A stretch of DNA of 25,826 nucleotides from positions 1 to 25,826 of the forward strand of contig JBHLLG010000037.1 in NCBI GenBank assembly GCA_048885925.1, read 5' to 3'. Under the pieces are notes generated by a model that made no database searches, was not told the origin of the DNA, and worked only from the letters and a program-made list of their open reading frames with translations. The translations under genes were made by a program, and so were the position numbers. Positions 4,666 through 25,340 of the stretch are shown piece after piece (positions within the stretch are counted from its first letter, which is position 1; every line of letters starts with the position of its first letter). This stretch comes from Candidatus Hermodarchaeota archaeon (lineage in GTDB: Archaea > Asgardarchaeota > Lokiarchaeia > Sigyniarchaeales > SOKP01).

Positions 4666-6186
4666 ATGAGTCGTAGTGCTAAAGTTAACCAAGTTATTCT
4701 GATTATTCTTGATGATGTTCGGGCGGGACATATATTCAAATTAATGAAGGAAGAAAAACTTCCAAATATAACACAAATTACCGATAATGGTATTGCGTGT
4801 TCAAATTGTATTACTTCCTATCCAGCTATAACTTTTCCTTGTTATGGTAATATAGTCACTGGTTCTTATTCAGGATATTTTCCAAAAGAAGGAAGCGCTG
4901 TTCCAATGTATCATTGGATGAATAGAATGGACCCTCCCTCAACGAGTAAAAAACCACCTTTTATCCGTAATTATGGAGATAGATCCCAATTATTAAAAAT
5001 AAACAACGATATTGGAAAAAATGTAAAAACATTATTTGAACAGGCACCCCACGGAAATTCTTTAAGTTCTAGTTGTTTTTTATTTCGTGGAGCTTATTTT
5101 GTTGCAGGAAAAAGTGTTATTGACGTAGAGGGTATCTTTAAAAATATAGCAGATGCATTTGAATATCCTAGATATTTTTTTGCAAATAATGAAGTTCCCT
5201 TGATAAGTGTAGGTTATGTATTCCAAACCGATGATATTATACATCAAAAAGGATTTGATAATCCCGAATATTTCAATCTTATAATTGAATGTGATAAATA
5301 TCTAGGAGCTTTAATAAATACATTGAAAAAGACTGGATATTATGATTCTACAGCTATTGGTATAATTTCAGACCATGGTAATTTTAAAGCAAAGGAGCAC
5401 TTCGACCTAGAGCCATTTTTCCAACAAAAGGGGCTGAAACCATACATCTCTCATAAAGGGATTGGAGATTTTGATTGTAATATTGGCTCAGTTGGTTTTT
5501 TTAATTTTTCAGGAGATACTTGGTATCACCATCCCACATTTCAACAACTACAGAAATTCAAACCGAGTGGTGCTGGAAAGCAAACACTAAATCTTTTTGA
5601 AACATTATGGGAAATTCCAGGAGTTAAATATATGTACTATAGAGATGATGATAATAAACCTGAAAAAGGGACAATTCATATTGAATATAAAGAAAAAAAA
5701 TCGGGGAAAATAATAAGAGGATCAATTGAATATCATGGCTTTGGAAAAGAACAAAAAACTAGATATACTTTTAATGGGAATGACTTTTATGGTTATAATA
5801 AAAATGAGAAATCAACACAATTACTTGATAATAGATTTCATTCCCTTGAAGAATGGTTAGAAGCTACAAATCAAATCAATTTTCCTATAATAATAGATCA
5901 AATTCCTAGATATTTTAAGAATCCTAGATCCTGTGATATTATAATCTCGACATTAGGAGAATATAATTTCAATTATGAGCACGGAAAGACTATGAATAGT
6001 TCTCTCTATTCTCACGATAATGGATTGAGAGAGTCAATGATCGTTCCATTCATTATTGGGTGTTCTCCAGAAGTTCCATCAAAAAAATTAGTATATTGTA
6101 AAACAACTGATATGGTTCCAACTCTCTTGGATTTATTAGGAATTATACCACACTCAAGTGTGATAGGGAAATCTGTATTGAAATAG
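4666..6186 (+). CDS. Alkaline phosphatase superfamily protein (nucleotide pyrophosphatase/phosphodiesterase-like)
   Basis: IILDD, YPAITFP (Thr nucleophile), TDDIIH, ISDHG, SHD and DMVPTLLDLLG motifs. Confidence 0.85.
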   Translation: MSRSAKVNQVILIILDDVRAGHIFKLMKEEKLPNITQITDNGIACSNCITSYPAITFPCYGNIVTGSYSGYFPKEGSAVPMYHWMNRMDPPSTSKKPPFIRNYGDRSQLLKINNDIGKNVKTLFEQAPHGNSLSSSCFLFRGAYFVAGKSVIDVEGIFKNIADAFEYPRYFFANNEVPLISVGYVFQTDDIIHQKGFDNPEYFNLIIECDKYLGALINTLKKTGYYDSTAIGIISDHGNFKAKEHFDLEPFFQQKGLKPYISHKGIGDFDCNIGSVGFFNFSGDTWYHHPTFQQLQKFKPSGAGKQTLNLFETLWEIPGVKYMYYRDDDNKPEKGTIHIEYKEKKSGKIIRGSIEYHGFGKEQKTRYTFNGNDFYGYNKNEKSTQLLDNRFHSLEEWLEATNQINFPIIIDQIPRYFKNPRSCDIIISTLGEYNFNYEHGKTMNSSLYSHDNGLRESMIVPFIIGCSPEVPSKKLVYCKTTDMVPTLLDLLGIIPHSSVIGKSVLK

Positions 6187-6331: not shown

Positions 6332-9127
6332 ATGAAAGCAACTAACATTATAATTGTACCTGAAACTCATTGGGACCGTGAATGGTATCTTACTTTTCAA
6401 GAATTTCGCGCAAAACTAGTCATAATGATTGACAAGTTATTAGAAATTTTAAGAACTGACCCAGATTATAAAAATTTTGTTTTAGATGGACAAGTAATTC
6501 CGATTGAAGATTATTTAGAAGTAAGACCGGAGAGAGAAGAAGAAATTAAGAGATATGTAAAGGAACGAAGACTCTCTATTGGACCCATGTATGTATTGCC
6601 TGATGAGTTTTTAGTTAGTGGTGAATCATTAGTACGAAATTTTTTAATCGGGCATCAGTTAGCAAGAAAATTCGGGAGAGTTATGCAAACTGCTTATATT
6701 CCAGATCCTTTTGGACACATTGCTCAACTTCCACAAATTGTGCACAATTTTGAACTTTCATCAATTATTTTTGAAAGAGGGTTTGGAAATGAGTTTGAAG
6801 AGAATGGACTAAATATGGAATTTATTTGGGAATCTCCAGGAAAATCAGCGTCACTCTTAGCTATTCATCTAGTTAGAGGTTATGGTTCTTTACAAGATCT
6901 AGATCTTTCTTTAAAGGATGGCAAATATATAGAGGCATTGAATAAGATAAAGAGAGTAACCTCTGATATAGAAAATTATATTGCTACACCTATTGTACTA
7001 CTTAATAATGGTAGTGATCATCGGGAAGCATGTCCAGTTATTTCTGAAATAGTAAAACAATGGAATGAGTTAAATCCTGATATATTATTAGAGCAAAATG
7101 ACTTCGAATATTATATTAATAAAGTTATTTCTATAAAACCAAAATTAAAATCCTTTCAGGGTGAACTCCGAGCTAGTAAATATTCACCTGTTCTTTCGGG
7201 AGTACTTTCGGCAAGAATGTGGATAAAGCAAAGAAATACAGAAATAGAATATTTATATGAAAAATACGCTGAACCCTTTTCAACAATTACATGGATTTTT
7301 GATAAATATCAGAAGTTTGTTTATCCTAAGGAGTATTTTCGTACTGGGTTGAAATGGTTAATTAAAAATCATCCTCATGATTCAATATGTGGATGTAGCA
7401 TAGATCAAGTACATAATGAAATGATAACTCGATTTGATTGGGCTGAACAAATAGGAACAGAGGTATTTAATTTATCCATTTCTTATCTTGCTAATTTAAT
7501 TAAGCTTAAGCCTCAAAGTATTAATAGAATTGCCTTAATAGTTATAAATCCTTTACCATGGAAACGTAGAGATATCGTAATTTTCAATGGAATTTCAATG
7601 AAAAAAAATCAATCTCTCAAATTTCCTATAAGTTTTAAAATTGTAGATTCTGATGACAATGAGATTGAATACCAGAGTTTTTATCTAAAACAGAATGCTA
7701 GATTTCGCAGGGAAACCGATATAAACCATCAATTTTTCTTCTTAGCTGATACTCCCGCATGTGGTTTTAAGGTATATTACATCATACTTGAAGAGGAAAT
7801 TAACAAAAATCAAAATTCTAACAAAGAATTCGTTTTGGATGGAAATTTAATTGAGAATATCTTCTATAAAGTTGAAGTAAAAAGAAATGGTCAAATCAAC
7901 ATTTATGACAAAAAACGAGATATTTGGTATGAAGATATTTGCCAATTTGAAGATGTAGCTGACTGGGGGGATGAATACAATTTTTCAGGACCTACAAGTA
8001 AACAGATAGACAAGATATATACAACCAAAGATTCTGAAGTAGTAGAAATTTTAACTTTTCTAAACGGACCCTCTCATAAAATGATAAAGATCAAGTTGAT
8101 ATTGAAATTACCGGCTGCATTAACAGAAAATCGGTTAGGGAGAGAAAAGAAATTAGTTGAAAATTATATTGATCTTTATATTTCATTATACAAAAATATT
8201 AATCGAATAGATTTTAAAATCGATCTTGAAAATAACAGTAAGGATCACAGAATTAGAGTCCTCTTTCCCTCTAAAATTGAATCCGAAAAAATCTGGTGTG
8301 ATGGACACTTTTATATTGTTTCTAGAAATATTCTCTTACCAAATGGTAAACGTTGGGCTGAAAAACCTTCACGAACAAATCATCAAAAGGATTTTATAGC
8401 TTTAAATGATAATTCTAAATGTTTTGCAATTTTAAATCGAGGGTTACCTGAATATGAAGCAATAAAGAATGAGGATGGAACAATAACAATAGCCTTGACT
8501 CTGTTACGCTGTATTGAGTGGCTGTCAAGACAAAATCTAGATTGTAGAAGGAATGATGCAGGTCCAAGCCTTAAAACTCCTGGAGCTCAATGTATCGGAT
8601 CCCACGCATTTGACTTCTCATTAATTATTGAAGAATTTGAAAATAATTGGTTGGATTCAAAAATCCATATCAAGGGAAAAGAATTTAACTGTCCCTTAAG
8701 ACCCATATTCCCTTTAATGTTTAAATCACCTCTACGGAGAGCTGACTTATTATTGCTATCACGAATGGGTGTTTTATCTAATTCAAAAATATTGCCAGAA
8801 AAGAATAACGATTCCTATTTACCTAGTGAAATAAGTTTTCTTGAAATAGATAATAAAAATATTATGCTAAGCGCTTTAAAAAAATCAGAAGTAGGAGAAA
8901 GTCTAATTATTCGAATCTATAATATATCCCCTTCTTTAGAAAGTGCAAATTTGATTTTTTATAAGACTTTAGTTTTAAAAAAGGTTGAAATTGTAAATTT
9001 CTTAGAGGAAAGTCCAAAAATTCAAATTAAGGCTAAAATTCATAGTTTTCATAAAAATAATCTTAAAATAATATTAGAACCATATGTAATCGCTACATTT
9101 AAAATTGAATTTGATAAAATAAAGTGA
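6332..9127 (+). CDS. Alpha-mannosidase, glycoside hydrolase family 38
   Basis: THWDREW, LDGQ, PDPFGH, NGSDH and HDSICGCSID motifs. Confidence 0.93.
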   Translation: MKATNIIIVPETHWDREWYLTFQEFRAKLVIMIDKLLEILRTDPDYKNFVLDGQVIPIEDYLEVRPEREEEIKRYVKERRLSIGPMYVLPDEFLVSGESLVRNFLIGHQLARKFGRVMQTAYIPDPFGHIAQLPQIVHNFELSSIIFERGFGNEFEENGLNMEFIWESPGKSASLLAIHLVRGYGSLQDLDLSLKDGKYIEALNKIKRVTSDIENYIATPIVLLNNGSDHREACPVISEIVKQWNELNPDILLEQNDFEYYINKVISIKPKLKSFQGELRASKYSPVLSGVLSARMWIKQRNTEIEYLYEKYAEPFSTITWIFDKYQKFVYPKEYFRTGLKWLIKNHPHDSICGCSIDQVHNEMITRFDWAEQIGTEVFNLSISYLANLIKLKPQSINRIALIVINPLPWKRRDIVIFNGISMKKNQSLKFPISFKIVDSDDNEIEYQSFYLKQNARFRRETDINHQFFFLADTPACGFKVYYIILEEEINKNQNSNKEFVLDGNLIENIFYKVEVKRNGQINIYDKKRDIWYEDICQFEDVADWGDEYNFSGPTSKQIDKIYTTKDSEVVEILTFLNGPSHKMIKIKLILKLPAALTENRLGREKKLVENYIDLYISLYKNINRIDFKIDLENNSKDHRIRVLFPSKIESEKIWCDGHFYIVSRNILLPNGKRWAEKPSRTNHQKDFIALNDNSKCFAILNRGLPEYEAIKNEDGTITIALTLLRCIEWLSRQNLDCRRNDAGPSLKTPGAQCIGSHAFDFSLIIEEFENNWLDSKIHIKGKEFNCPLRPIFPLMFKSPLRRADLLLLSRMGVLSNSKILPEKNNDSYLPSEISFLEIDNKNIMLSALKKSEVGESLIIRIYNISPSLESANLIFYKTLVLKKVEIVNFLEESPKIQIKAKIHSFHKNNLKIILEPYVIATFKIEFDKIK

Positions 9128-14356: not shown

Positions 14357-16249
14357 TTATTGATTTATCCATTGATATAATTTTCCCAATAAGACTCTTT
14401 TCTCATGATTATTTTTAAGTTTATCAAGACTCGGGATATTCATTAACCACATTGAGGATCTTAATTCTTGTTTTAAGGTTTTTATCTCTTTGATTGTATT
14501 TGATAAAGTATTATCCTTATAATCTTGCCATGCTGATTTTAGAAATTTGAAGGCAAATCCACCTATATTTGCTCCAATTGAGATTGCTTTAGCAATATCA
14601 ACACCATTTCTCAGACCTCCTGTAGCAATTATTAATTTTTGAGTCACTTTTCTAACATTGATTATACTAATCGGTGTAGGAATACCCCATTCTTTGAATG
14701 TATCTGCAATCTTCCGAGTATATACTTCATAACTATAGTCATCGCGTATTGATTCTATTGCAGCAAAACTCGTACCTCCAGCTCCACCGACATCAAATCC
14801 ATCAAATCCTAATAGATCGAGCTTTAAAGCTAATTCTTTATTAAATCCAGTTCCAACCTCTTTAGCTATAATTGGAATATCTGTGTTTTTTCTTAAATCT
14901 TTAAAATTTGATTCAAAATTTTTATAGGAAATATTTCCATCACTTTGAACTAGTTCATGTAGAGCATTAAAGTGTATAGCCATAGCATCAGCATTGATCA
15001 TCTCAATACACTGTCTAAAGTAATCTAAATTAAATTTTGGATCACACAATTGTCCTATACCCAAATTTCCTATCACAGGAATATTTGGGGCAATCTCGCG
15101 TATAATTGTAAATGAATCGATAGTTGAAGGATCTTCTAATCCGATTCTTTGACTACCAACACTCATAATGATATTTTCAGTTTTTGCGGCATTTGCCAAG
15201 ATATTATTTATTGCTTTAGAAACTTGGTGTCCTCCTGTTATTGCTGCGATACAGATGGGTGCTGAAATCTGTTTTTTGAAGAAATTAATAGAAAGATTGA
15301 TTTCATCTAATTCGATTTCTGGAAGTGGATGGTGGATAAGATTAATGTCATCAAAAAAGTTCTTTGAATGTTGCACATTATACTCTAAAGGTATTTTTAT
15401 ATGTTCTATCTTTCTGTTATACAGTTTATTTGGACTAATTTTTTCAGATGTAATTTCTATATTAGTACATTTTATTTTTTGATTAAGTAAAGCTTTCAGA
15501 ATATTGTCATTTTTTTTTCCATTGATAATTTGAACGGGGATATTTAATTTTATAATTTCTTCAATTTCTGATAATTTGCCTTTTATCCCACCAGTAACAT
15601 CTATTTTTTGATCTAATTGTGCTAATTCTATATTAGCTAAATCATTAAGCGTTAGCTTTAGAGCTAATTTTTCTTTCCCATTATCCTTAACATATATACC
15701 ATCCTCTTCTATGGCAAATATAACCTTTGAGATCTTGAACTCTCCAAGTTTTTCACACAATTTTGAAATGATACGATCTCCTGAAAGAATTGAAAATGAA
15801 TAATCCTTACTAAGTAAAATATCTCCATATAGGACAGGAATAATTCCAAGTTCAATTAATTTCTCAATTGGCTCAACAGATTTAAGTACAATTTCATTAA
15901 AATCGTGTATAAAAATACTGGAAGGTTGAATTGAAATCGCTGGGCATCCTTTATCCAATAATTTGTTTATAATTATTGAATTAAATCTAATCATAGCCTC
16001 ATGGGTTTTAGAAAGACCTATTATTTGATCTTTTATAGTAGCATTCAATCCTTGAGAAATTTGATATTTTTTAGCAACAGGATGACCAAAAGATCCACCT
16101 CCATGTACTAAAATGATAGATTTTTTGCTTTCAATGATTTGATCAAGACAGCTTTCTAAAATTTCATCTCTAAATGAAAATGGTTTATTTTTATCTGTTA
16201 ATAAACTTCCACCTAACTTTAATATAAATATCTCCTTAGGGTTTTTCAA
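14357..16249 (-). CDS. fni: Fusion of isopentenyl phosphate kinase and type 2 isopentenyl-diphosphate isomerase
   Basis: IPK half has LKLGGSLLTDK, HGGGSFGH, SGD and DVTGG. IDI-2 half has RKIEH, ITGG, GSQR, KEVG, GAGGTS, WGIPT and TGGLR. TTG at 16249 lies 7 nt after AGGTGA and is preferred over 16270. Confidence 0.92.
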   Translation of the reverse strand: MKNPKEIFILKLGGSLLTDKNKPFSFRDEILESCLDQIIESKKSIILVHGGGSFGHPVAKKYQISQGLNATIKDQIIGLSKTHEAMIRFNSIIINKLLDKGCPAISIQPSSIFIHDFNEIVLKSVEPIEKLIELGIIPVLYGDILLSKDYSFSILSGDRIISKLCEKLGEFKISKVIFAIEEDGIYVKDNGKEKLALKLTLNDLANIELAQLDQKIDVTGGIKGKLSEIEEIIKLNIPVQIINGKKNDNILKALLNQKIKCTNIEITSEKISPNKLYNRKIEHIKIPLEYNVQHSKNFFDDINLIHHPLPEIELDEINLSINFFKKQISAPICIAAITGGHQVSKAINNILANAAKTENIIMSVGSQRIGLEDPSTIDSFTIIREIAPNIPVIGNLGIGQLCDPKFNLDYFRQCIEMINADAMAIHFNALHELVQSDGNISYKNFESNFKDLRKNTDIPIIAKEVGTGFNKELALKLDLLGFDGFDVGGAGGTSFAAIESIRDDYSYEVYTRKIADTFKEWGIPTPISIINVRKVTQKLIIATGGLRNGVDIAKAISIGANIGGFAFKFLKSAWQDYKDNTLSNTIKEIKTLKQELRSSMWLMNIPSLDKLKNNHEKRVLLGKLYQWINQ

Positions 16250-16262
16250 ATATAATTCACCT

Positions 16263-17229
16263 TCATCCAATTAGGGTTTTCCATGCTTCATATCCTTCTT
16301 TTTTAATGGCTATAACAATTTTATTTTGTATTTTTTTATTTTCGGCTAAAGCTATAACTAAACCTCCTCGTCCAGTTCCAGTCAATTTAGCGCCAATCGA
16401 TCCATTTTTTAATGCAATTTCAACTAATAGATCATTAATTTCTCTAGAAACAGTTATATCTTGTAATAATTTATGGTTTTGATACATTAATTTTCCAATA
16501 GCAGGAATATCTCCTTTTATTAAAGCTTTTTTTGCTTTTGCTGCTAACTTTTCATACTCACTAAAAATTTTTTCAAATTTATTTGGATCCTCTTCCTTTA
16601 AACGTCGAACATCAGCTACTACTTCTGTTGTTGAGGCTGTTATCCCTGAATTTATTATAACTAAAGGAATTTTTTTTTGCGATTTAAGAAGATCCATGGT
16701 ATTTTTTCCCCCACTTAAATTTTTAACAAACCAAATCAAACCTCCATAAGTAGAAGCTGTATTATCAATCCCTGAAGGAGTGCCATGATAGGCTTTCTCT
16801 CCTTCATAGGCAGCTTGGTTTATTTTTTCTTCGCTTAGATTAAGATTAAATGTATTATTCAAAGCTCGAGAAAGTGATACACATTGAGCTGCTGAAGCTC
16901 CCACTCCACTAGTCGCGATCAAGTCACCAGAAAAAGTTATTTCAAGCTTCTGATTTTCTACATCGATTTTCAAATGTTCAATTACATTTTTAATTGATTC
17001 TTGTGCCTCATTGAATTTCTGCTTTTTATAACCTGGAGTTGCTGGTCTTTGATCATCAACCATCCAACCACTACCAGGAACTACTTTAACTTCCGCAGTT
17101 GTGGAAGACCCTAATGCCGATGCAATTGCGGGAAGACCATACACAACGAAATGATTGCGTTTATTTCCGAGTTGGAAAATAAAATTCGCCAAAAAGTATG
17201 GTTTTACCGTATCCCTTTCCAGTTCCCAT
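16263..17229 (-). CDS. mvk: Mevalonate kinase, split by a 31-nt putative intron (exon 1 17229-17185, exon 2 17153-16263; 311 aa spliced)
   Basis: ATG at 17229 directly follows the upstream TGA and reads MGTGKGYGKTILFGE. The sequence resumes in another frame as HFVVYGLPAIA. SGVGASAA, HGTPSGIDN and GAKLTGTGRGG motifs are intact. Confidence 0.93.
17154..17184 (-). other. Putative bulge-helix-bulge intron (31 nt) in mvk
   Basis: Insert TTTTATTTTCCAACTCGGAAATAAACGCAAT. Intron stem TTTATTTTCC/GGAAATAAA, central helix GGCG/CGCA, bulges AA^T and AT^C. Removal restores GE-H. Confidence 0.8.
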
Positions 17230-17619
17230 TCATTTCACTTCCACGGTTCCTTCAGAACCATTAACAACTATTTTTTGTCCAGTCTTTATATTATTTATAT
17301 CAATTTGGTCTACGCAAGGAATTTCGCTAATGATACACCCTACAGCAACTATTGTATCGATTTGCTTATTAACTATTGCTGCAGGAGCTGTGTTGTTCTT
17401 TTTCATTCTATACATAGTATAAGAACCTACTGTTGATCCTTTACCTGTTGGAAAAACTAAAATCTTCCCTGTTATTGATTGACCTTCAATTTCATGTCCA
17501 ACTTCAACAATTTTCCCAGAATCGGGGTCAACACCACCATAAAATGAAATTCCATCCTTTGTTACAATTGCTTCTGCTTCTGCCATACCTTTATATATCT
17601 TTCTTCCTTCCATCTTCAT
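17230..17619 (-). CDS. Phosphomevalonate dehydratase small subunit (AcnX swivel domain, DUF126)
   Basis: ISFYGGVDPDSG, GQSITGKILVFPTGKGSTVGSY motifs; ATGA overlap with the large subunit gene. Confidence 0.92.
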   Translation of the reverse strand: MKMEGRKIYKGMAEAEAIVTKDGISFYGGVDPDSGKIVEVGHEIEGQSITGKILVFPTGKGSTVGSYTMYRMKKNNTAPAAIVNKQIDTIVAVGCIISEIPCVDQIDINNIKTGQKIVVNGSEGTVEVK

Positions 17620-18809
17620 TTTATTGCTTCCTCCACACAGTCCTCAATTGAACCAATTTTTACTTTAAATTTATTTTTTGCTCGACCATAATAACACGCT
17701 TTTGCTGAATCTACCATTATTCCATTGAAACGTCCCTTAATTGGAGCAACTACACAACAAGTATCCGCAGCAAACTTAGCTCCTGCAGTTTCAATTATTT
17801 TAGAATAACCAGCTTCGTCAGCTATTCTTTTTGTAGGTCGCGCTGTTGTAATCCAAAATTCCTTTTTTACTCTCTTCCCCTTTAAAAGGTTAGCAATCTT
17901 TTCAATTTCATAAATTGACGCATGAGGACAACCTATACTAACAAAATCTATTTCAGAATCATCGTCAATAAGTTCTGTTCGTGCTTTATCCAGATCTTCC
18001 TGGTTTATTTCAAAAAATATGTTACTTGGTTTAGGATATTTATTATATTCTGGAGTTATTCCTTCCATATGGAATAATGCTGTTCCACCATAAGTTGCGA
18101 TAGAAGCACAAAATGATTTAAGCTCCTCAACAGTTGTATTGTTAATTCCAGTTATATATGGAATTTTTTTTCCTAATTCAACCAACTTAGTTCCAATAAT
18201 TTTACCCAACACACCAAATTCATCTGTACCTTTAAGGGGGATATTAACTTTGACTAAAACTTCCCCATGACGATTTTCATCTAAATGATACCCATATTTT
18301 GGCGTTTTCCCAGTAATAGCAGAAGCTAATGCACTCGGACCCCCTTCACGGTTAGTTCGAGCACCAATAACCGAATTAGCATAACAAACAGCACTACTTT
18401 CAGCCCAAGCAATATGTTGACCAAAATGTGGCGTATTTCCTATTAAGTATGGTGTACATGAGCACGTTGTAATTATACCCATTTTAGCAAAAGCATCAAT
18501 TGCGCGATTTTGATTTTTTGCAAAATCTTTATCAATTCCTAAGGCTTGCCAATTTTCTCGGTCCATTCCAGCTGGATTTAAGGTTGTTAAAACTCTAACC
18601 TTCCCATCTTCTGCCATTTCACTCAAGAATTCTAAACCCGCTTCTCCAAGATTATCATATGAAACTCCGGCTATTTGGACACCATAAACATCGACCATAC
18701 ACTCAGCCTCAAATATATCACCTAAAGTGGTTAGTATCTCCATTGATTTTTGAGCTGCTCTTCCAAATTTCCCATCTAGCATTTCCTGTTCTTCTGAGGT
18801 TAATTTCAT
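17616..18809 (-). CDS. Phosphomevalonate dehydratase large subunit (AcnX catalytic domain, DUF521)
   Basis: TTLNP, CSCTPY, WAESSAV.YANSV.GARTNREG, GCPH and DTC motifs; mevalonate operon context; AGGTGA upstream. Confidence 0.92.
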   Translation of the reverse strand: MKLTSEEQEMLDGKFGRAAQKSMEILTTLGDIFEAECMVDVYGVQIAGVSYDNLGEAGLEFLSEMAEDGKVRVLTTLNPAGMDRENWQALGIDKDFAKNQNRAIDAFAKMGIITTCSCTPYLIGNTPHFGQHIAWAESSAVCYANSVIGARTNREGGPSALASAITGKTPKYGYHLDENRHGEVLVKVNIPLKGTDEFGVLGKIIGTKLVELGKKIPYITGINNTTVEELKSFCASIATYGGTALFHMEGITPEYNKYPKPSNIFFEINQEDLDKARTELIDDDSEIDFVSIGCPHASIYEIEKIANLLKGKRVKKEFWITTARPTKRIADEAGYSKIIETAGAKFAADTCCVVAPIKGRFNGIMVDSAKACYYGRAKNKFKVKIGSIEDCVEEAIK

Positions 18810-18824
18810 TTTTCACTCTTCACC

Positions 18825-20138
18825 TTAAAAATATTTGCTAATATCTACTTTTGGAAATTCTGCAATTTCAAAATTCTTACCTTTTACAACAAGTGGTTTA
18901 GTTAAATCAAAACCAATTTTTGTGGTCATCTTTGTTCCCGGCTCAGCACTCGGATCTAAACTGCTTCCTGGTTCTTTATCTTTAACTATCATTCTTGTAT
19001 CTCCTTGAAAGCGAGTCGCCATTGCCCATTCTACAGATAAAGGATCATAGATATTGATATCTTTATCAACAATAAAGGCATGCTTGCAGCTTGTATGACC
19101 TGTAAAAGTTCCCTCTATTGCTTTTTTTCCATCCTCCTCTGACATTTTATCAATTTGAACTATAGCATGTAACCAAGAAGACCCACCAGGACTAATATTT
19201 ACATCTAAACACTTTACTCCCAATTCATTTACCTTGTTGAATATTGTTGGTTCACGGGGCATACCCATTAGTATCTTATGTTCGAGAGCACCTGGTAAGA
19301 GAGCTTGCCAAATCGCATCCTTTCGATGGGTAATTCTTTTTACCTCAAAGATGGGCTCTTGTCTTATAATGTCATAAGTTTCGGTCAGGTCAACAAAAGG
19401 TCCCTCTGAATGTTTTTCTTCCAAGTAAACACGTCCCTCCAATACAAATTCAGCTTCTGCAGGAATAAGAAGATCTACAGAATTTGCCTTTGTTACTTTA
19501 ATAGGTTCTAAGGCATTAGCTATTTCTAACTCATTGACTCCAATATCTACCGAAGTTGCTCCAGCAATTAATATATTCGGAGTATTTCCTATACAGAAAG
19601 CGACATCTAGTTCACCGTTTTTTTCTAAAAATTTATGGAAGTGCCGACCACTTACAATTCGAGTAGAAAATTTGTTTTTAGAAAATTGCATTGCTCTATG
19701 GAAGTCTAGATTTTGACCATAGTCTGGATCTTGAGTAACAACAACAGCAGAACTAATATAATTTCCACCATCCTTTTCACAATGAAATAAAATTGGCAGT
19801 TTGTCTAAATCAATATTTGATTCAATAACTTGTTGACAGGGAGCATTAGTGACTACTTCTGGTTTTGAACGTTCTTTGATTGCTTTTGAGAGCATTGGTA
19901 TGAGATCTGCGGGAGTAACACCAAAATATGATGCAATTACATTTTTCGTGCAAAATACGTTACCAACAACACGAAATTCAGATTCTCTAACATTATTAAA
20001 TATTACTGGAGTTGGCTCAATTTCTTTTAATATTCCCGCGATTTCTAATTTTTTTGATACTTCAAGATTTACTTTTCGAAGAAGACCATCTTCATCAATT
20101 TGGTTTATGTATTCTCTAAATCCCATATTATTACTCAT
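18825..20138 (-). CDS. UbiD-family decarboxylase, probable trans-anhydromevalonate 5-phosphate decarboxylase
   Basis: PAEAEFVLEG, EGPFVD, VDKDINIYD, WAMATRFQ and GSSLDPS motifs; adjacent to the AcnX genes and mvk. Confidence 0.9.
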   Translation of the reverse strand: MSNNMGFREYINQIDEDGLLRKVNLEVSKKLEIAGILKEIEPTPVIFNNVRESEFRVVGNVFCTKNVIASYFGVTPADLIPMLSKAIKERSKPEVVTNAPCQQVIESNIDLDKLPILFHCEKDGGNYISSAVVVTQDPDYGQNLDFHRAMQFSKNKFSTRIVSGRHFHKFLEKNGELDVAFCIGNTPNILIAGATSVDIGVNELEIANALEPIKVTKANSVDLLIPAEAEFVLEGRVYLEEKHSEGPFVDLTETYDIIRQEPIFEVKRITHRKDAIWQALLPGALEHKILMGMPREPTIFNKVNELGVKCLDVNISPGGSSWLHAIVQIDKMSEEDGKKAIEGTFTGHTSCKHAFIVDKDINIYDPLSVEWAMATRFQGDTRMIVKDKEPGSSLDPSAEPGTKMTTKIGFDLTKPLVVKGKNFEIAEFPKVDISKYF

Positions 20139-20219
20139 TTCAAAAATTTAATTCTTATAATATAATTATTACTATTTTCAATAATTTTTAGAAGAGTTAC
20201 AGAAACACTTTTTATAAAA

Positions 20220-21500
20220 CTAAATGTTTTCATCATTTACCATTCTTTGGAATATTTCTTTTGCATAATCAATTCTGATTTTTTTATCTTTAACCAATCT
20301 ATTTGCAACTTTTTCTACTAAATTCTCAGGGACTCCTGCTTGCCTGGCAATATTTTTTGAATGAAGAGCCATGTGCCCTTCTTGAATACCTTCTGAAGCT
20401 AAAGCTCTTAACGCAGCTACATTTTGAGCTAAACCGACCGCAGCAGCTACTTGAGAAAGTTCGTTAGCACTTTTGATATTTAAAATCTTTAATGCTAGTC
20501 GAGCCATCGGATGAATTTTAGTCATCCCTCCAACAATACCAAGAGCAAGAGGAATTTCAATTTCTCCAACTAAATTTCCATTTGAGTCAACTTGAAATTT
20601 AGTCAAAGGAGAATATTTTCCCCTTAGTGCAGCATATGCGTGTGCTCCTGCCTCAATAGCCCTTGTGTCATTTCCTGTGGCCAATGTTAAAGCTATAATT
20701 CCGTTCATTATTCCTTTATTATGAGTTGTTGCTCTGTAGGGATCTACTAATGCAAATTCATAAGCATTTAGAATTCCTTCAACGACCTCTTCTCCACCTA
20801 ATAAATCTCTATCAAAAGTAGCTCTACTTTTAGCAATTCTATGTGTGGCTAAGTTCGATACTATCCGAAGATAAATTATCCCACCGCTGAGTTCTTCAAT
20901 ATAAGGACTTATTGCTTCAGCCATGGTATTTACTACATTAGCACCCATAGCATCTAAAACATCGACTAATAAATGTAAAACTAACATCATGCCCTTTCGA
21001 GTTTCCAGCTCTCTAATTTCGAAATCAAAGGCACCTCCACCCAATTGATTTAAGGTGGGATCTTGATCATTTGCCAATTTTAAAATCTTATCTTTATTTT
21101 CTAATATCTTCCTTTTAGTATTTTCAATGTCAGATAATTTGGTTATTTGTATTTGTGAAATCATAACAGATTTTACATTATCTGAATGGAATCCTCCATG
21201 TTTTCTAGCAAATTTAGCTGCATTTGAAGCTGCTGCTACAACTGAGGGCTCTTCAATAACCATGGGAATTATGTAATCTTTTTCATTTACTTTAAAGTTG
21301 AAAGCTAACCCAAGAGGTAACTGATAACTTCCAACTACATTTTCAATTAAACTATCAATTTGATTTTTGGTAAAGTATCCCAAATTGCGTAAAATCTTAA
21401 TTTCTTCTCCATTAAGATTAACAATTTTACCTAAGATTTGCTGACGTTCTTCAAATGATAATTTATAAAAACCAGAAATATCTGAATGGAATTTCTTCAT
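20220..21500 (-). CDS. mvaA: HMG-CoA reductase, class II (MvaA-type)
   Basis: IENVVG, EEPSVVAAAS, DAMGANVVN, RATTHNKGIMNG and GIQEGHMALH motifs; start at ATG 21500 or GTG 21512. Confidence 0.93.
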   Translation of the reverse strand: MKKFHSDISGFYKLSFEERQQILGKIVNLNGEEIKILRNLGYFTKNQIDSLIENVVGSYQLPLGLAFNFKVNEKDYIIPMVIEEPSVVAAASNAAKFARKHGGFHSDNVKSVMISQIQITKLSDIENTKRKILENKDKILKLANDQDPTLNQLGGGAFDFEIRELETRKGMMLVLHLLVDVLDAMGANVVNTMAEAISPYIEELSGGIIYLRIVSNLATHRIAKSRATFDRDLLGGEEVVEGILNAYEFALVDPYRATTHNKGIMNGIIALTLATGNDTRAIEAGAHAYAALRGKYSPLTKFQVDSNGNLVGEIEIPLALGIVGGMTKIHPMARLALKILNIKSANELSQVAAAVGLAQNVAALRALASEGIQEGHMALHSKNIARQAGVPENLVEKVANRLVKDKKIRIDYAKEIFQRMVNDENI

Positions 21501-21728
21501 TGTTTTATTCACGATTCTAAAAACTATCTATATAAAAATTTAATTTCTTAGCTTTTAGTGATTTTAAATTTAATATTCGAAAGAAAATTTTAATTTTTTT
21601 TGAATTTCATTTAAACTTCTTTTTATTACGAAACTAAATTATATTTATCAATATTAACATTAATCTGAAACAAAGGAAACATTGTATTATATCAGAAATT
21701 CATACTAATTATCATTAAAGAAAAAAAA

Positions 21729-23390
21729 CTAAACATGTTGAGGAATCGCTTGTCGTTTCTTTATATATTTATCTGGTATAGCAATATATATTGGACTCCA
21801 GTTTAAGAGTCCCTGTGCCTCGATATTTTGTTCATTAGGATATTCTACTCTCCTTACTTCATATTCTAAAGAAATACCTTTCCTTACATTTTCAGCAACT
21901 CTTACTAAACCTTTGCTCAAATAACTCAAATCACTGCCATTATTATAAGTAACTGGATCGCTTGTAAGTTTGGCAAAGAGAGGGAAAAATCTTTTATGAT
22001 ATCCTGTATGCCCTTTTGGACAGTGATCTAAACCTTTTATATTTGGGATAATGCATCCCTCATCGCAAAAGTAAAGTGTAAAACCCCTTTTATCGTTTTG
22101 CTCATGTTCAATAATATTACCAACTAGAACTTTCGGTTTCGCATGTCCATTTTTTATTAGTTCGTATTCCTTAACACTTTTCTTCTTTTTTAAATGGATA
22201 AAATCATTTATAGATGGACCATTTTGAACAATTTCTTTAAATCTCTCTTGAACTTTCAGCAACCCAGAAATACATGTAGCCCCTGACCCATAAGAACCAA
22301 AATAAATTATATCATATACATTAGTATGGTTTTCCATCAAAAATATTATCTGTGCCCAGATACTGGCATTATACATATTTCCAAAATGCATTGGAACTCT
22401 TAATTGAGGAAGCACTCGAGCTTTAATGTTAGTATTTACCCAATTTGAAAGTCTTTCTAATGTTGTTGATGAAAATCCTCTTTCATTTAATTTTAAATAA
22501 ATATATTCAGGTAATACAGTAACATCGTGTAAAAATGAATCAATTTTCTTTAGGATAGTTGATCTAAATTTGTTTTGTTCAAACTTAGGTAAATCACCTA
22601 TATGTTTTATCCAACGTTTTAAAATAATTTGTTGCATTATTTTTAATGGTAACTTTGAAAAGGGGGCATGAAATGTATAAAAATCTGCATGAAAATCCCC
22701 TACATTTTTAATTAAGTCATCATATGCCTTTAATTGAAAATCGAGATATGCATCCTGAGAATATTGCCCAAAAGCTCTTGCATTCTTATCATTCGGAGGT
22801 CTAAAGAAGTCATTAACATTACCAGATATTTTTCCAAACCGTTTGGAAAAAGTAGCTACTCGGGGGTCCTTAGAAATCACAAGTCCAATAGCCCCTGAGC
22901 CTTGTGTTGGTTCTCCTGGAGATCCAAGGTGATATGACGAAATGTCTGCGCTTATAATAAGAGCTTTGTTTATAATTTCTTTTTCAATCATCCCAATTGC
23001 ATTAAGAATTGCTAGCGTACCACCTGCACACGCGTTGTAGACATCCATTGTAAACGCGTTGGGCGAAATCTCAAGCATTTCGGCATATATGTTTGAGATA
23101 CTTTTAGCTGCATATACTTCTGTTTCAGTTCCAACAAATAAAGCGTCAATACTCTTAGGATCGATTCCACCTCTTAATATTGCATTATATCCTGCCTTTA
23201 ATCCAAGAGAGATGATATCCTCATCAACGTCAGGAATTCGCATCTCTTTAGACAAGAGTCCTTTGCTATATTTCTCCGGCTCTACCCCTCGTGCTATAGC
23301 AAGTTCATCTAGTTTAACGTAATGCCTTGGTGCATAAAAACCAAGCGAATCAATGCCTATGTCGCTGAAAAGATAATCGTTTGAAAGCAT
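21729..23390 (-). CDS. HMG-CoA synthase with a long internal segment and a Cys-containing C-terminal extension
   Basis: VGTET, NACAGG (catalytic Cys), GEPTQGSGA, DFFRP, FHAPF, GNMY and SYGSG motifs. Confidence 0.9.
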   Translation of the reverse strand: MLSNDYLFSDIGIDSLGFYAPRHYVKLDELAIARGVEPEKYSKGLLSKEMRIPDVDEDIISLGLKAGYNAILRGGIDPKSIDALFVGTETEVYAAKSISNIYAEMLEISPNAFTMDVYNACAGGTLAILNAIGMIEKEIINKALIISADISSYHLGSPGEPTQGSGAIGLVISKDPRVATFSKRFGKISGNVNDFFRPPNDKNARAFGQYSQDAYLDFQLKAYDDLIKNVGDFHADFYTFHAPFSKLPLKIMQQIILKRWIKHIGDLPKFEQNKFRSTILKKIDSFLHDVTVLPEYIYLKLNERGFSSTTLERLSNWVNTNIKARVLPQLRVPMHFGNMYNASIWAQIIFLMENHTNVYDIIYFGSYGSGATCISGLLKVQERFKEIVQNGPSINDFIHLKKKKSVKEYELIKNGHAKPKVLVGNIIEHEQNDKRGFTLYFCDEGCIIPNIKGLDHCPKGHTGYHKRFFPLFAKLTSDPVTYNNGSDLSYLSKGLVRVAENVRKGISLEYEVRRVEYPNEQNIEAQGLLNWSPIYIAIPDKYIKKRQAIPQHV

Positions 23391-23510
23391 GTTGTGCTCT
23401 TCCTTTATTCCGATGAAAAAATAAATAATTAAATATAATATTTATTTGTTCAAAAACTTATCTAATTAAAAAATTGTATTATTAAACACTATTTAAGATT
23501 AACGATATGA

Positions 23511-24461
23511 ATGATAATTTCGAAAAATAAGAGTATGAAAAGTAATAATTTAAAACCTTATATATTTATATCAATTGCAATTGTTTGTTGGGGATTATCA
23601 AGCACTTTTATAGAATTAGGGTTAAATTCAATGCATTTTGCTCCATTTCTTTTTTATCGCTTCTCTATTTCAATGATAATATTAACTCCCTTAATTATAA
23701 TTAAGAAGCGACGTCAAACCGCAATTTTATTTAAAAATAAAATCGTTTGGTTTATTGGTATATTCGAAAGTTTGGGATTAATATTTCAATATATTGGACA
23801 AGAACTTCAAATTCCAGCAGGTTTAACAACTTTAATAACAATTATGTATGCAATTATGGTTCCATTTTTTTCTTATATCTTTTTAAAACAAAGATTGAAG
23901 CTATATCATTTGGTTGCTGTACTTACTGGCTTTATAGGGATTTTTTTTATTATTTCAGAAGGAGATTTGAATTTTCTTAAGCAAGGATCTTTATCATTAA
24001 TAGGAATTTTAATGCTTATAGCAGCAGCAGGCTTCTTTGGACTATATATAACATTTACTTCCTATATTCAAAAATCCACTGACAATAAAATAGATTCAAT
24101 TAGTCTTTTTTATGTAATGCTTGTAATTGTGACATTATTTAGTGTATTATCTATGATAATAACAGGTATTTATGTTCTTCCTTCTAAAGATACGTGGATA
24201 TGGTTATTCAATCTTATAATTTTTTCTACGATTATTGCTTTTTATATGTATTTTATTTCAATGAAAACTATCAGTGCAAATCAAGTCTCTTTACTTTTAC
24301 TTCTTCAAGTTATCATTCCATTTATTATAGACATATTTCTTTTTGGTCGAAATTATCATTTATTTGTTTTGATCGGGAGTATAATTTTATTTGTTTCAAT
24401 ATTATTTTCAACTCTAATATCAAATTTAAGCAAAGAATTAGATACTAGTTCTATAGGATAA
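23511..24461 (+). CDS. EamA/DMT family transporter
   Basis: About 10 hydrophobic segments in two repeats; CWG...F...G and FLFYRF motifs. Confidence 0.88.
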   Translation: MIISKNKSMKSNNLKPYIFISIAIVCWGLSSTFIELGLNSMHFAPFLFYRFSISMIILTPLIIIKKRRQTAILFKNKIVWFIGIFESLGLIFQYIGQELQIPAGLTTLITIMYAIMVPFFSYIFLKQRLKLYHLVAVLTGFIGIFFIISEGDLNFLKQGSLSLIGILMLIAAAGFFGLYITFTSYIQKSTDNKIDSISLFYVMLVIVTLFSVLSMIITGIYVLPSKDTWIWLFNLIIFSTIIAFYMYFISMKTISANQVSLLLLLQVIIPFIIDIFLFGRNYHLFVLIGSIILFVSILFSTLISNLSKELDTSSIG

Positions 24462-24572
24462 TTATCTTATCATTTCATATTTTTTTGAATAAAATTAGCT
24501 ATTTTCGATAAAATTAATATTTTTAATATTCATATTAATATTGAAAATAATACAACTATTTAATAGCATTAG

Positions 24573-25340
24573 ATGATAACCACTTTAGAAGAATTAAAAA
24601 AAGAAGCAAAGGATAAGCTACCTAAGCATATCGGGCTCATCGTTGATGGGATTTAGAAAGGATTTCCGTTTTTAACCAAAAACAGACGATGGGCGAAAAA
24701 GAGAAATCTAGATGTTAATTTAGGTCATTTAATTGGATATGAAAACCTTAAAAAGAGATTATTTGACTTTTTTGATGCGGGGATCCATTATCTAAGTTTA
24801 TATATTTTATCGCTTGAAAATGTGAGGAAGCGTAATCTACAAGAACTTGATTATATTTATAAGATAATGGTTAGAGCAGTAGATACTGTCATTAATGAAT
24901 CAATTGTAAAAGAAGAAAAGGTTAAATTTAATGTTATTGGAAGGACATATATGTTACCGGAAAAAGCAAAGCGGAAAATTGAAGAATTAGTTGAATTTAC
25001 TAAAGATCACGACCAAAACTATATTAATCTTTGTATAATGTATGATGGACACGAAGAAATTGTTGATGCAGTTAAAAGAATCATCAATGATGGAGTAAAG
25101 CCAGAACGAGTAAATACTGAATTAATTAAAAATTATCTCTATACTAAAAATTTCCCTCCCTTAGATTATATTATTAGAACAGGGATGAATGATGGTGCAA
25201 GAATCTCAGGATTTTTATTATGGGATTCTTCTTACGCAGAGTTTAAATTTCGAAATGATTTATGGCCTGATTATAATAAAGAGATGGTAATTGAAGATTT
25301 AGAAGATTATATTAATAGAATTCGACGCATGGGCCGATGA
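24573..25340 (+). CDS. uppS: Cis-prenyltransferase (UppS family), split by a 30-nt putative intron (exon 1 24573-24651, exon 2 24682-25340; 245 aa spliced)
   Basis: Reads PKHIGLIVDG [I*KGFPFLTK] NRRWAK, then GH..G, SLEN, YDG, DYIIRTG, RISGFLLWDSSYAE, WPD and the terminal RRMGR. The ORF track captured only the 3' part, from 24822. Confidence 0.93.
24652..24681 (+). other. Putative bulge-helix-bulge intron (30 nt) in uppS
   Basis: Insert TTTAGAAAGGATTTCCGTTTTTAACCAAAA. Intron stem TTAGAAAGG/CC(G)TTTTTAA, central helix ATGG/CCAA, bulges GA^T and AA^A, exon stem GCTCATCGT-TG/CA-(G)-ACGATGGGC. Removal gives GAT GGG AAC AGA CGA TGG. Confidence 0.83.

What the first reader, a model, noticed from the sequence alone, without database searches (positions are those of the whole stretch)
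17136..24694. Candidate system: tiny BHB-type mRNA introns in two isoprenoid-biosynthesis genes of a probable Asgard archaeon
Seen: mvk and uppS, about 7.5 kb apart on opposite strands, each carry a 30-31 nt hairpin insertion. The two inserts differ in sequence but share one geometry: a 4-nt central helix (3 Watson-Crick pairs plus a purine-A mismatch at the exon-proximal end) flanked by two 3-nt bulges. Both lie in the first 30 codons, inside an invariant catalytic motif, start with TTT and contain a stop in the exon-1 frame. Cutting after the second base of each bulge restores the motif in both. Established: this is the cut rule of the archaeal tRNA splicing endonuclease EndA, with ligation by RtcB; the well-documented protein-gene case is crenarchaeal cbf5. 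Inference: this organism splices metabolic mRNAs, which could make isoprenoid and glycosyl-carrier lipid synthesis depend on EndA/RtcB activity. That would be loosely analogous to ligase-dependent XBP1/HAC1 splicing in eukaryotes. I do not know of reports of such introns in these genes but cannot check the literature.
Basis: partly seen in the sequence, partly recalled or inferred. Interest (0 to 1): 0.95.

Follow-up and report, generated by a model that had tools for sequence, protein, structure and literature searches.

The report
Mini-introns inside Lokiarchaeal protein genes
Two lipid-pathway genes of a Lokiarchaeal (Asgard) genome are each broken by a roughly 30-base hairpin with the shape cut by the tRNA-splicing enzyme, and similar mini-introns sit in other genes of this lineage, so it probably splices messenger RNAs routinely.

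Summary
Each forms a 3-nt bulge / 4-bp helix / 3-nt bulge motif, and cutting after the second bulge base restores the frame and the conserved motif.

These are not artefacts or decaying genes. The mvk insert is at the same site in 34 of 63 readable orthologues. The uppS insert is in 9 of 47 gene copies of the genus. Both show compensatory base changes and frozen synonymous sites in the exon half of the helix. Both genes are single-copy, and EndA and RtcB are present.

The "isoprenoid system" reading is not supported. Comparing this genome with 2.0 Mb of a congener found six more 28-36-nt inserts of the same geometry, in uL11, a Ras-like GTPase, a JAMM protease, a CooS-type gene and CdhD (two). 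uL11 carries inserts at four different sites across the family (three fold as the motif). The mvk and uppS introns also come and go independently.

Best reading (0.85): EndA/RtcB-spliced mRNA introns, the cbf5 kind, in new genes and a new lineage. No RNA data could be reached.

The parts
17185..17229 (-). mvk exon 1: ATG plus 14 codons (MGTGKGYGKTILFGE). The ATG directly follows the TGA of the upstream AcnX small-subunit gene.
   Evidence: The same peptide is encoded upstream of exon 2 in orthologues. The scan matched GKGYGKTILFGE 12 of 12 to G021.
17154..17184 (-). mvk intron, 31 nt. Third base of bulge 1 at 17184; inner helix 17175-17183 with 17160-17168; loop 17169-17174; central-helix 3' strand CGCA 17156-17159; first two bases of bulge 2 at 17154-17155.
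   Evidence: Present at the same site in 34 of 63 readable orthologue loci. Covariation.
17187..17190 (-). Exon half of the mvk central helix (GGCG, ending in the Gly codon), followed by bulge bases 17185-17186.
   Evidence: The Gly codon is GGC in 31 and GGT in 3 of 34 intron-bearing genes. In 29 intronless genes it is GGA 14, GGT 6, GGG 6, GGC 3. In all three GGT cases the intron strand still pairs: a double change in two, a G-U wobble in one.
16263..17153 (-). mvk exon 2 (296 codons plus stop).
   Evidence: Pfam GHMP_kinases_N and GHMP_kinases_C. TIGR00549 scores 210.6 bits against a cut-off of 163.05, starting at profile position 11. It is the only match above the cut-off in the genome.
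24573..24651 (+). uppS exon 1 (26 codons plus 1 base; ...KHIGLIVDG). It includes the central-helix strand ATGG at 24646-24649 and bulge bases 24650-24651.
24652..24681 (+). uppS intron, 30 nt, with an in-frame TAG. Inner helix 24653-24659 with 24669-24675; central strand CCAA 24676-24679; bulge 2 at 24680-24682.
   Evidence: Same site in 9 of 47 uppS copies of the genus. Pair counts.
24682..25340 (+). uppS exon 2 (stop included). Bases 24685-24694 form the outer helix with 24635-24644.
   Evidence: Pfam Prenyltransf, profile 6-219 of 219, E 2.9e-52. Only PF01255 match in the genome.

Best explanation
The two inserts are archaeal bulge-helix-bulge (BHB) introns in pre-mRNA. The transcript folds so that the last bases of exon 1 pair with the 3' end of the intron, forming the 4-bp central helix. 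The intron body forms a hairpin, and for uppS the two exons also pair with each other. The splicing endonuclease EndA cuts after the second base of each 3-nt bulge, and RtcB joins the exons. This restores the mevalonate kinase and cis-prenyltransferase reading frames and releases a 30-31-nt intron that is probably circularised.

These are two members of a class of 28-36-nt mini-introns scattered through protein-coding genes of this Lokiarchaeal family. The class is old enough to be shared between species and is repeatedly lost precisely.

Shown: the structure, its conservation and covariation, the exact match between cut rule and reading frame, and the presence of the enzymes. Inferred: that cleavage and ligation actually happen, and by these enzymes.
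For: 1. The cut rule gives the exact junction that homology requires in both genes.

2. mvk conservation. The intron is at the same site in 34 of 63 readable orthologue loci out of 80 fetched from differently named MAGs. On 34 distinct sequences, 84.8% of cells pair against at most 44.0% when partners are slid. There are 22 cells with changes on both sides against 10.2 +/- 2.2 in shuffles (0 of 500 reach it).

3. uppS conservation. Across 9 sequences, 85.6% of cells pair against at most 52.8% slid. Three pairs change on both sides against 0.6 +/- 0.6 in shuffles (1 of 500).

4. Exon synonymous sites in the helix are frozen only where the intron is present (Gly codon counts).

5. Both genes are single-copy: PF01255 has 1 match, and TIGR00549 has only this locus above its cut-off.

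6. EndA and RtcB are present. The closest solved EndA chains are 3p1z_B and 3ajv_B at E 5.5e-38 and 1.4e-36, against 1a79 at 6e-22. That these are catalytic subunits of crenarchaeal heterotetramers is recalled, not from a call. PMC5829648 (passages read) says Asgard archaea have the (alpha-beta)2 type with the L1 loop that gives broad specificity.

7. Six more inserts were found by homology alone, without reference to structure, and all fold the same way. Their exon pieces hit one Pfam family at contiguous profile positions: Ribosomal_L11_N 1-26 then 27-58, and Prismane 3-457 then 458-512. Six of the 8 G000 introns, plus one found in G021, pass a simple BHB test (two of them after a 1-3-nt shift of the homology-placed junction). 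Its base rate is 1.1% exact and 5.5% within 2 nt.

8. Intron lengths of 28, 30, 30, 31, 31, 31, 32 and 36 nt show no bias towards multiples of three.
Against: The mvk outer helix is poor (one adjacent pair). In two uppS sequences (G010, G057) only the two middle pairs of the central helix form, and across the nine sequences the central helix is 69.4% paired. Several substrates are therefore relaxed motifs whose cleavage depends on a broad-specificity enzyme.

Only one EndA gene was found, and no beta-subunit paralogue turned up with the alpha protein as query.

A genome-wide ab initio scan showed no excess of frame-joining BHB-like hairpins over shifted-cut controls: 75 against 72-89 for internal sites and 52 against 63-84 for N-terminal sites. 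The class is therefore small, tens at most per genome, and structure alone does not identify members.

An intron in a coupled transcription-translation system raises an unanswered kinetic problem.
Confidence: 0.85

Rival explanations
1. One reading: the two introns form a regulatory device that makes isoprenoid and glycosyl-carrier lipid synthesis depend on EndA/RtcB activity, like XBP1/HAC1 splicing. This would add to, not replace, the BHB-intron reading.
For: Both genes belong to isoprenoid metabolism and lie 7.5 kb apart, beside a mevalonate-pathway cluster: HMG-CoA synthase and reductase, AcnX large and small subunits, a UbiD-like gene and an IPK-IDI fusion. Both introns sit early in the gene, so an unspliced message yields only a short peptide.
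Against: The two introns occur independently. Of 18 congeners, 5 have both, 7 have only mvk, 1 has only uppS and 5 have neither. Intronless relatives keep the same pathway. The same kind of intron sits in uL11, a GTPase, a JAMM protease, a CooS-type gene and CdhD. None of the other six pathway genes read in the window is interrupted.
Confidence: 0.07
2. Translational recoding: ribosomes bypass the inserts (as in phage T4 gene 60) or shift frame, with no RNA splicing.
For: Each insert is short, forms a hairpin, and has a stop codon soon after the take-off point in the exon-1 frame.
Against: Bypassing needs matching take-off and landing codons. That requirement is recalled from the T4 gene 60 case, not taken from a call. 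Here GAA is followed by a landing context AAT in mvk, and GGG/GGA by AAA in uppS, so there is no match. The conserved feature is the 3-4-3 bulge-helix-bulge with covariation in the helix that joins exon 1 to the intron's 3' end, which bypassing does not need. One CdhD intron, and the uppS intron of G043, have no in-frame stop at all.
Confidence: 0.04
3. Broken genes or artefacts: the inserts are assembly or sequencing errors, or mark pseudogenes in decay.
For: All genomes are metagenome-assembled drafts. The window's genome is 95% complete with 4.4% contamination.
Against: The same inserts recur at the same sites in dozens of MAGs whose record titles name different isolates and projects. Every readable copy keeps exon 2 open at full length. 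Exon 1 varies mostly at third codon positions. The genes are single-copy, and uL11, which cannot be dispensable, carries the same kind of insert.
Confidence: 0.03

Closest known systems
cbf5 pre-mRNA intron of Crenarchaeota (Desulfurococcales, Sulfolobales): Watanabe 2002, Yoshinari 2006, Yokobori 2009 (PMC2738675, abstract and passages read)
   Same: A short BHB intron inside a coding sequence. The predicted cut lies between the second and third bulge bases and matches the exon borders. The motifs are often relaxed. The hosts have a hetero-oligomeric, broad-specificity EndA. The distribution is patchy, with gain and loss among relatives.
   Different: The host genes differ: cbf5 in this genome is uninterrupted across the TruB_N domain. 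The lineage differs (Lokiarchaeia). There are many genes rather than one, with up to four insert sites in a single gene region (uL11). Splicing here is not experimentally confirmed, whereas cbf5 cDNAs were sequenced.
Archaeal tRNA BHB introns, including the heavily interrupted tRNA genes of some Asgard archaea (PMC11291895 passages; bioRxiv 10.64898/2026.10.13.758758, abstract and passages)
   Same: The same motif and the same presumed enzymes. Sizes are similar: ARAGORN finds introns in 19 of the 31 tRNA genes it detects in this genome, 14 of them 9-31 nt long. [quoted passage not shown] Gains recur at different positions.
   Different: The host RNA is an mRNA, so removal must be exact to the base to keep the frame. 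The exon half of the helix is also under protein-coding constraint. Those two papers, in the passages read, deal with tRNA genes only.
Haloferax volcanii HVO_1309 5'-UTR BHB intron (PMC7714728, passages read)
   Same: An mRNA processed by the archaeal splicing endonuclease, shown both in vivo and in vitro.
   Different: That intron lies in the untranslated leader, not in the coding sequence, and the host has a different EndA type.
IRE1-dependent XBP1/HAC1 unconventional mRNA splicing in eukaryotes
   Same: Spliceosome-independent removal of a short intron from an mRNA, with joining by a tRNA ligase (RtcB in animals).
   Different: The nuclease is IRE1 acting on twin stem-loops, and splicing is stress-regulated. 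That description is recalled, not from a call. Here the motif is BHB, no IRE1 homologue was sought, and regulation is not shown. This is an analogy only.

Membership tests
Archaeal BHB intron (EndA substrate) | [quoted passage not shown] | tested here: met
   mvk: GGCG [AA|T] ... CGCA [AT|C]. uppS: ATGG [GA|T] ... CCAA [AA|A]. Each has 3 of 4 standard pairs. In mvk the three pairs 26-58, 27-57 and 28-56 hold in 34 of 34 sequences. In uppS the two middle pairs hold in 9 of 9, and the outer two in 5 and 2 of 9.
Archaeal BHB intron (EndA substrate) | Cleavage after the second base of each bulge yields the functional mature RNA | tested here: met
   Removing 17154-17184 and 24652-24681 joins exon 1 to exon 2 in frame. 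The joined reading matches the contiguous sequence of intronless orthologues. This is inferred from DNA; no RNA was seen.
Archaeal BHB intron (EndA substrate) | Flanking helices h (exon-exon) and h' (within the intron) | tested here: inconclusive
   h' is present in both: 9 bp in mvk and 7+2 bp in uppS. h is strong in uppS (1+10 bp) but in mvk is one adjacent pair plus a distal 6-bp helix, which makes it a relaxed HBh'-like form.
Archaeal BHB intron (EndA substrate) | The structure is maintained in evolution by compensatory change | tested here: met
   mvk, 34 sequences; uppS, 9 sequences. In mvk, exon GGC to GGT is matched by intron CGCA to CACT in two sequences. In uppS, exon GAT to GAC is matched by A to G in the intron in G010.
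Archaeal BHB intron (EndA substrate) | The host encodes the splicing endonuclease and an RtcB ligase | tested here: met
   PF01974 at 101.7 bits on contig 22 and PF01139 at 569.6 bits on contig 12. EndA has both Pfam domains. A beta subunit was not found with the alpha protein as query.
Archaeal BHB intron (EndA substrate) | Cleavage by EndA and ligation are shown on RNA | not testable with these tools
Crenarchaeal cbf5 intron (same orthologous intron) | The intron lies in the cbf5 gene | tested here: not met
   The TruB_N profile 1-149 matches in one 342-codon open frame with no stops.
Programmed translational bypass (T4 gene 60 type) | Matching take-off and landing codons flank the skipped stretch | tested here: not met
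   The codons do not match at either locus. The requirement itself is recalled.
Group I / group II self-splicing introns and other described RNA families | A match to a curated RNA family model | tested here: not met
   No Rfam family reaches its gathering score anywhere in the window. No tRNA is found in the window.

The most novel reading that the evidence does not exclude
In this Lokiarchaeal family a still-active process seeds BHB mini-introns into protein-coding genes as well as tRNA genes. Tens of mRNAs per genome, including one for a ribosomal protein and ones for the acetyl-CoA pathway, cannot be translated without EndA/RtcB. Single genes can accumulate several introns at different sites. 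That would be a prokaryotic exon-intron gene organisation, serviced by the tRNA-splicing machinery, in close relatives of eukaryotes.
Probability: 0.45. Interest if true: 0.9.

Novelty: new member of a known kind. Interest (0 to 1): 0.8.

Why it matters
In the passages I read, BHB introns inside archaeal coding sequences were documented for one gene only: cbf5 in Crenarchaeota. PMC7714728 states this as of 2020, and PMC2738675 mentions only unconfirmed predictions for other genes. Eight literature searches found no report of such introns in Asgard archaea or in mvk, uppS or uL11.

If splicing is confirmed, three things follow:
- Essential metabolic and ribosomal genes of a Lokiarchaeal family depend on the tRNA-splicing enzymes.
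- Gene callers mis-annotate these genes as truncated or frameshifted. Here the automatic ORFs start at a spurious TTG in mvk and at an internal GTG in uppS.
- Intron gain, precise loss and the coding constraints on exon-borne splice motifs become testable in a prokaryote related to the eukaryotic ancestor.

It does not, on present evidence, reveal a lipid-specific control circuit.

Tried and rejected
Ab initio census. I scanned both strands of the 3.9-Mb genome for BHB geometry and asked whether removal joins two open frames.
- 1,767,236 loose hits, 229,801 stricter hits and 27,165 compact hits.
- Frame-joining at the true cut was 75 for internal and 52 for N-terminal sites. With the 3' cut shifted by 1-2 nt it was 72-89 and 63-84.
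- There is no excess, so structure plus open frames cannot pick out members. I dropped this route in favour of homology.

False leads from the homology screen. Inserts with stops at C106:~5406 (TFB), C109:~2216, C12:~51370, C22:~1080 and C52:~7165 lie upstream of the real start codons, because stop-to-stop frames were used as queries. Many gaps without stops fall in low-complexity linkers. Two inserts stay unexplained: C117:81-144 (64 nt) and C28:26116-26167 (52 nt). They have no BHB by the simple test.

Other points.
- A loop motif (AAUUC / AUUUC) seemed to recur in several introns. I did not test it.
- I looked for an EndA beta subunit using the alpha protein and found none. That does not show absence.
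Supplementary files of papers were not consulted; those of the Asgard tRNA-intron preprint and of PMC5829648 might bear on EndA types and intron catalogues.
- I did not search public collections for the spliced junction, because that would have meant typing a joined sequence.
- Structure prediction, complex prediction, the search for homologous proteins and the search of protein representatives were not needed and not used.

Full report
WHAT IS THERE. The window is a whole 25,826-bp contig (C37) of a 3.9-Mb draft genome, 29% G+C, 95% complete. Record titles of its closest relatives read Promethearchaeota / Promethearchaeia, that is Lokiarchaeia. The genus holds 53 genomes in the collection.

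The window carries an archaeal mevalonate-pathway cluster: an amino-acid-kinase / FMN-dehydrogenase-fold fusion (presumably IPK-IDI2), mvk, AcnX small and large subunits, a UbiD-like gene, HMG-CoA reductase and HMG-CoA synthase. An EamA transporter gene and uppS follow.

mvk reads MGTGKGYGKTILFGE, then runs into a stop, and HFVVYGLPAIA... resumes in the next frame after 31 nt. uppS reads ...KHIGLIVDG, then 30 nt with TAG, then NRRWAKK.... Automatic ORF calling therefore gives a spurious TTG start for mvk and an internal GTG start for uppS.

GEOMETRY. Each insert has the canonical arrangement. Four exon-1 bases pair with four bases near the intron's 3' end. A 3-nt bulge follows on each strand, and the intron body is a hairpin. 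Cutting after the second base of each bulge removes exactly 17154-17184 and 24652-24681. uppS also has an 11-pair exon-exon helix with one bulged base. mvk has only one adjacent outer pair plus a distal 6-bp helix, which makes it a relaxed form.

MORE THAN CHANCE. The shape alone is common in this A+T-rich genome: 1.1% of random sites pass a simple test, and there are 27,165 compact look-alikes. The comparative evidence is what decides.

mvk:
- Of 80 loci fetched from the species-representative collection, my pattern could read 63. Of the 17 it could not read, 11 are distant relatives (49-53% identity). 34 carry an insert at the same site (31 nt in 32, 30 nt in one, 28 nt in one) and 29 carry none.
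- On 34 distinct sequences, the proposed pairs are formed in 84.8% of cells against 35-44% when partners are slid.
- 22 cells change on both sides against 10.2 +/- 2.2 in shuffles, and the covariation score is 0.155 against 0.111. None of 500 shuffles reaches either value. Related sequences can beat such shuffles without structure, so the slid controls and the specific compensations carry more weight.
- Exon GGC to GGT is answered by CGCA to CACT in two sequences and by a G-U wobble in a third.
- The Gly codon that forms part of the helix is GGC in 31 and GGT in 3 of 34 intron-bearing genes. In 29 intronless genes it is spread over GGA 14, GGT 6, GGG 6 and GGC 3. The Thr-Ile codons that form the distal helix behave likewise.

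uppS:
- 9 of 47 gene copies read in 46 genomes of the genus carry the 30-nt insert. None of the 7 copies from other genera of the order whose flank was printed has it.
- 85.6% of cells pair against 36-53% slid. Three pairs change on both sides against 0.6 +/- 0.6 in shuffles (1 of 500).
- Against this, the outermost central pairs are often unpaired, and in G010 and G057 only two of the four central pairs form.
- In G043 the insert has no in-frame stop.

NOT BROKEN GENES. PF01255 has one match in the genome. TIGR00549 exceeds its cut-off only at this locus, and the match begins at profile position 11, right after the intron. Exon 2 is open at full length in all orthologues used. EndA and RtcB are encoded. 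The EndA protein is closest to chains 3p1z_B and 3ajv_B, which I recall as catalytic subunits of crenarchaeal heterotetramers. PMC5829648 (passages) states that Asgard archaea carry that type with the L1 loop linked to broad substrate range. No beta paralogue was found with the alpha query.

HISTORY. On a maximum-likelihood tree of mvk exon 2 (64 rows, first 30 nt left out), intron presence needs 12 changes, at least 6 of them forced by well-supported branches. Shuffled labels need 21.3 on average. Because the intron sequences are plainly homologous, the simplest reading is one old gain followed by repeated exact losses. After a loss the flanking synonymous sites drift. This reading is an inference. 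The tree is a gene tree with a midpoint root, and transfer of alleles between species is not excluded.

NOT AN ISOPRENOID SYSTEM. Across 18 congeners with both genes readable, the states are both 5, mvk only 7, uppS only 1 and neither 5.

To look for other members without using structure, I fetched 2.0 Mb (88%) of the single-contig congener G021, which lacks both introns. I compared its 3,498 stop-to-stop frames of at least 70 codons with the window's genome by tblastn. uppS was recovered as a control. mvk was recovered only by a dedicated scan for short terminal exons, so the screen gives a lower bound.

Six further inserts emerged in G000:

| Gene | Contig and strand | Position | Length |
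|---|---|---|---|
| uL11 | C20, minus | about 5248-5277 (ends ambiguous by 2 nt) | 28 nt |
| Ras-family GTPase | C12, minus | 62467-62497 | 31 nt |
| JAMM/MPN protease | C15, minus | 18539-18569 | 31 nt |
| Prismane / CO-dehydrogenase family | C4, plus | 38336-38367 | 32 nt |
| CdhD, first insert (no in-frame stop) | C17, plus | 26361-26390 | 30 nt |
| CdhD, second insert | C17, plus | 26531-26566 | 36 nt |

The CO-dehydrogenase-family intron has a 4-pair central helix, an 8-bp inner helix and a 6-bp outer helix.

The exon pieces hit the same Pfam family at adjoining profile positions: Ribosomal_L11_N 1-26 then 27-58, Prismane 3-457 then 458-512, Ras 1-34 then 38-157, and CdhD 7-135 ... 182-227. 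All six fold as bulge-helix-bulge. Two of them (uL11 in G000 and the first CdhD intron) have a mismatch or bulge next to the motif and fail my simple contiguous-pair test.

The reciprocal screen used 4,604 G000 frames of at least 90 codons. It found one clear G021-specific 30-nt BHB intron, in a metallo-beta-lactamase-fold gene.

uL11 ACROSS THE FAMILY. In the genus, 51 of 53 genomes matched. Of the 30 loci fetched, 25 were readable, and 8 carry the 28-nt intron with compensatory changes in the hairpin.

In a 150-genome sample of the class, open frames cut short just upstream of exon 2 (137-151 codons) appear in genera g1, g14 and g16 of family f1. None appears in the 22 matched genomes of families f2-f7.

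Aligning 17 N-terminal regions shows inserts at four different sites within about 35 codons, and some genes carry two:
- after ...GGS
- after ...PPI
- after ...PAV
- after ...GIN

Folds of representatives show the bulge-helix-bulge at the PPI, PAV and GIN sites. The GGS site was not resolved by folding. These extra sites rest on 2-6 sequences each and were read by eye from the alignment.

CONTEXT. ARAGORN finds only 31 tRNA genes in the genome, 19 of them with introns, 14 of which are 9-31 nt long. One tRNA gene (C24, about 7572-7611) has a 25-nt insert that is absent from G021. The genome is therefore rich in tRNA introns of the same size class. cbf5, the known crenarchaeal host gene, is not interrupted here.

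LITERATURE.
- PMC7714728 (passages): as of 2020 the only BHB intron in an archaeal coding sequence was cbf5, plus a 5'-UTR intron in Haloferax.
- PMC2738675 (abstract, passages): introns in other genes had been predicted but not confirmed.
- bioRxiv 10.64898/2026.10.13.758758 and PMC11291895 (passages) treat Asgard tRNA introns only.
- Eight full-text searches returned no paper on BHB introns in protein-coding genes of Asgard archaea. The library lacks most subscription journals, and PMC3064391 was not held, so this is not proof of absence.

VERDICT. The pathway-specific interpretation is not supported. The broader result is a small, dispersed and evolutionarily dynamic population of 28-36-nt BHB introns in protein-coding genes of a Lokiarchaeal family.

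Noticed in passing
G000 contigs C20:5248-5277(-), C12:62467-62497(-), C15:18539-18569(-), C4:38336-38367(+), C17:26361-26390(+), C17:26531-26566(+): Six further 28-36-nt BHB inserts sit in uL11, a Ras-like GTPase, a JAMM protease, a CooS-type (prismane family) gene and CdhD (two). All are absent from the congener G021.
   Followed up: yes
Loci L311-L324 with L281, L297, L302 (alignment A4): The first ~35 codons of uL11 carry inserts at four different sites in genera g1, g14 and g16 of the family. Some genes have two. At the GIN site, G143 has a quite different hairpin sequence from the others.
   Followed up: partly
G021 contig 1, minus strand, near 335,883: A 30-nt BHB intron sits in a metallo-beta-lactamase-fold gene of G021 and is absent from the window's genome. 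G021 (2.27 Mb) lacks all eight G000 introns found.
   Followed up: partly
G000 C24:~7572-7611: A tRNA gene has a 25-nt insert relative to G021, a tRNA-intron polymorphism. ARAGORN finds only 31 tRNA genes in the genome, 19 with introns, which suggests that many interrupted tRNA genes go undetected.
   Followed up: partly
G000 C117:81-144 and C28:26116-26167: Inserts of 64 nt and 52 nt lie between conserved N-terminal peptide segments and the rest of the gene, relative to G021. Neither shows a BHB by the simple test. They are unexplained.
   Followed up: no
window 14357-16270 (-): One 637-codon frame fuses an amino-acid-kinase domain (isopentenyl phosphate kinase-like) with an FMN-dependent dehydrogenase-fold domain (type 2 IDI-like).
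   Followed up: no
window 21729-23390 (-): The HMG-CoA synthase frame is 553 codons long, with a ~170-residue C-terminal extension that contains Cys/His clusters and has no Pfam hit at E 0.001.
   Followed up: no
L064 (G007) and L065 (G019): Two congeners have, at the syntenic place, a mevalonate kinase only 33-35% identical to this one. It resembles that of the neighbouring family and has no intron, which suggests gene replacement.
   Followed up: no
L168 (G043) uppS; L161 and L174 (G063): The uppS intron of G043 has no in-frame stop, so an unspliced message would encode a 10-residue insertion in the DG/NRRW motif. G063 has two uppS copies, both intronless.
   Followed up: no
G021 contig 1, 739,359-739,370: A 10-nt surplus relative to G000 appears at codon 38 of a 498-codon frame. 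It may be a frameshift, an error or something else.
   Followed up: no
Intron hairpin loops of mvk, uppS, uL11, GTPase, JAMM and CdhD: The loops often read AAUUC, AUUUC or similar, flanked by GG/CC or GA/UC pairs. This could reflect shared origin or an enzyme preference. It was judged by eye only.
   Followed up: no
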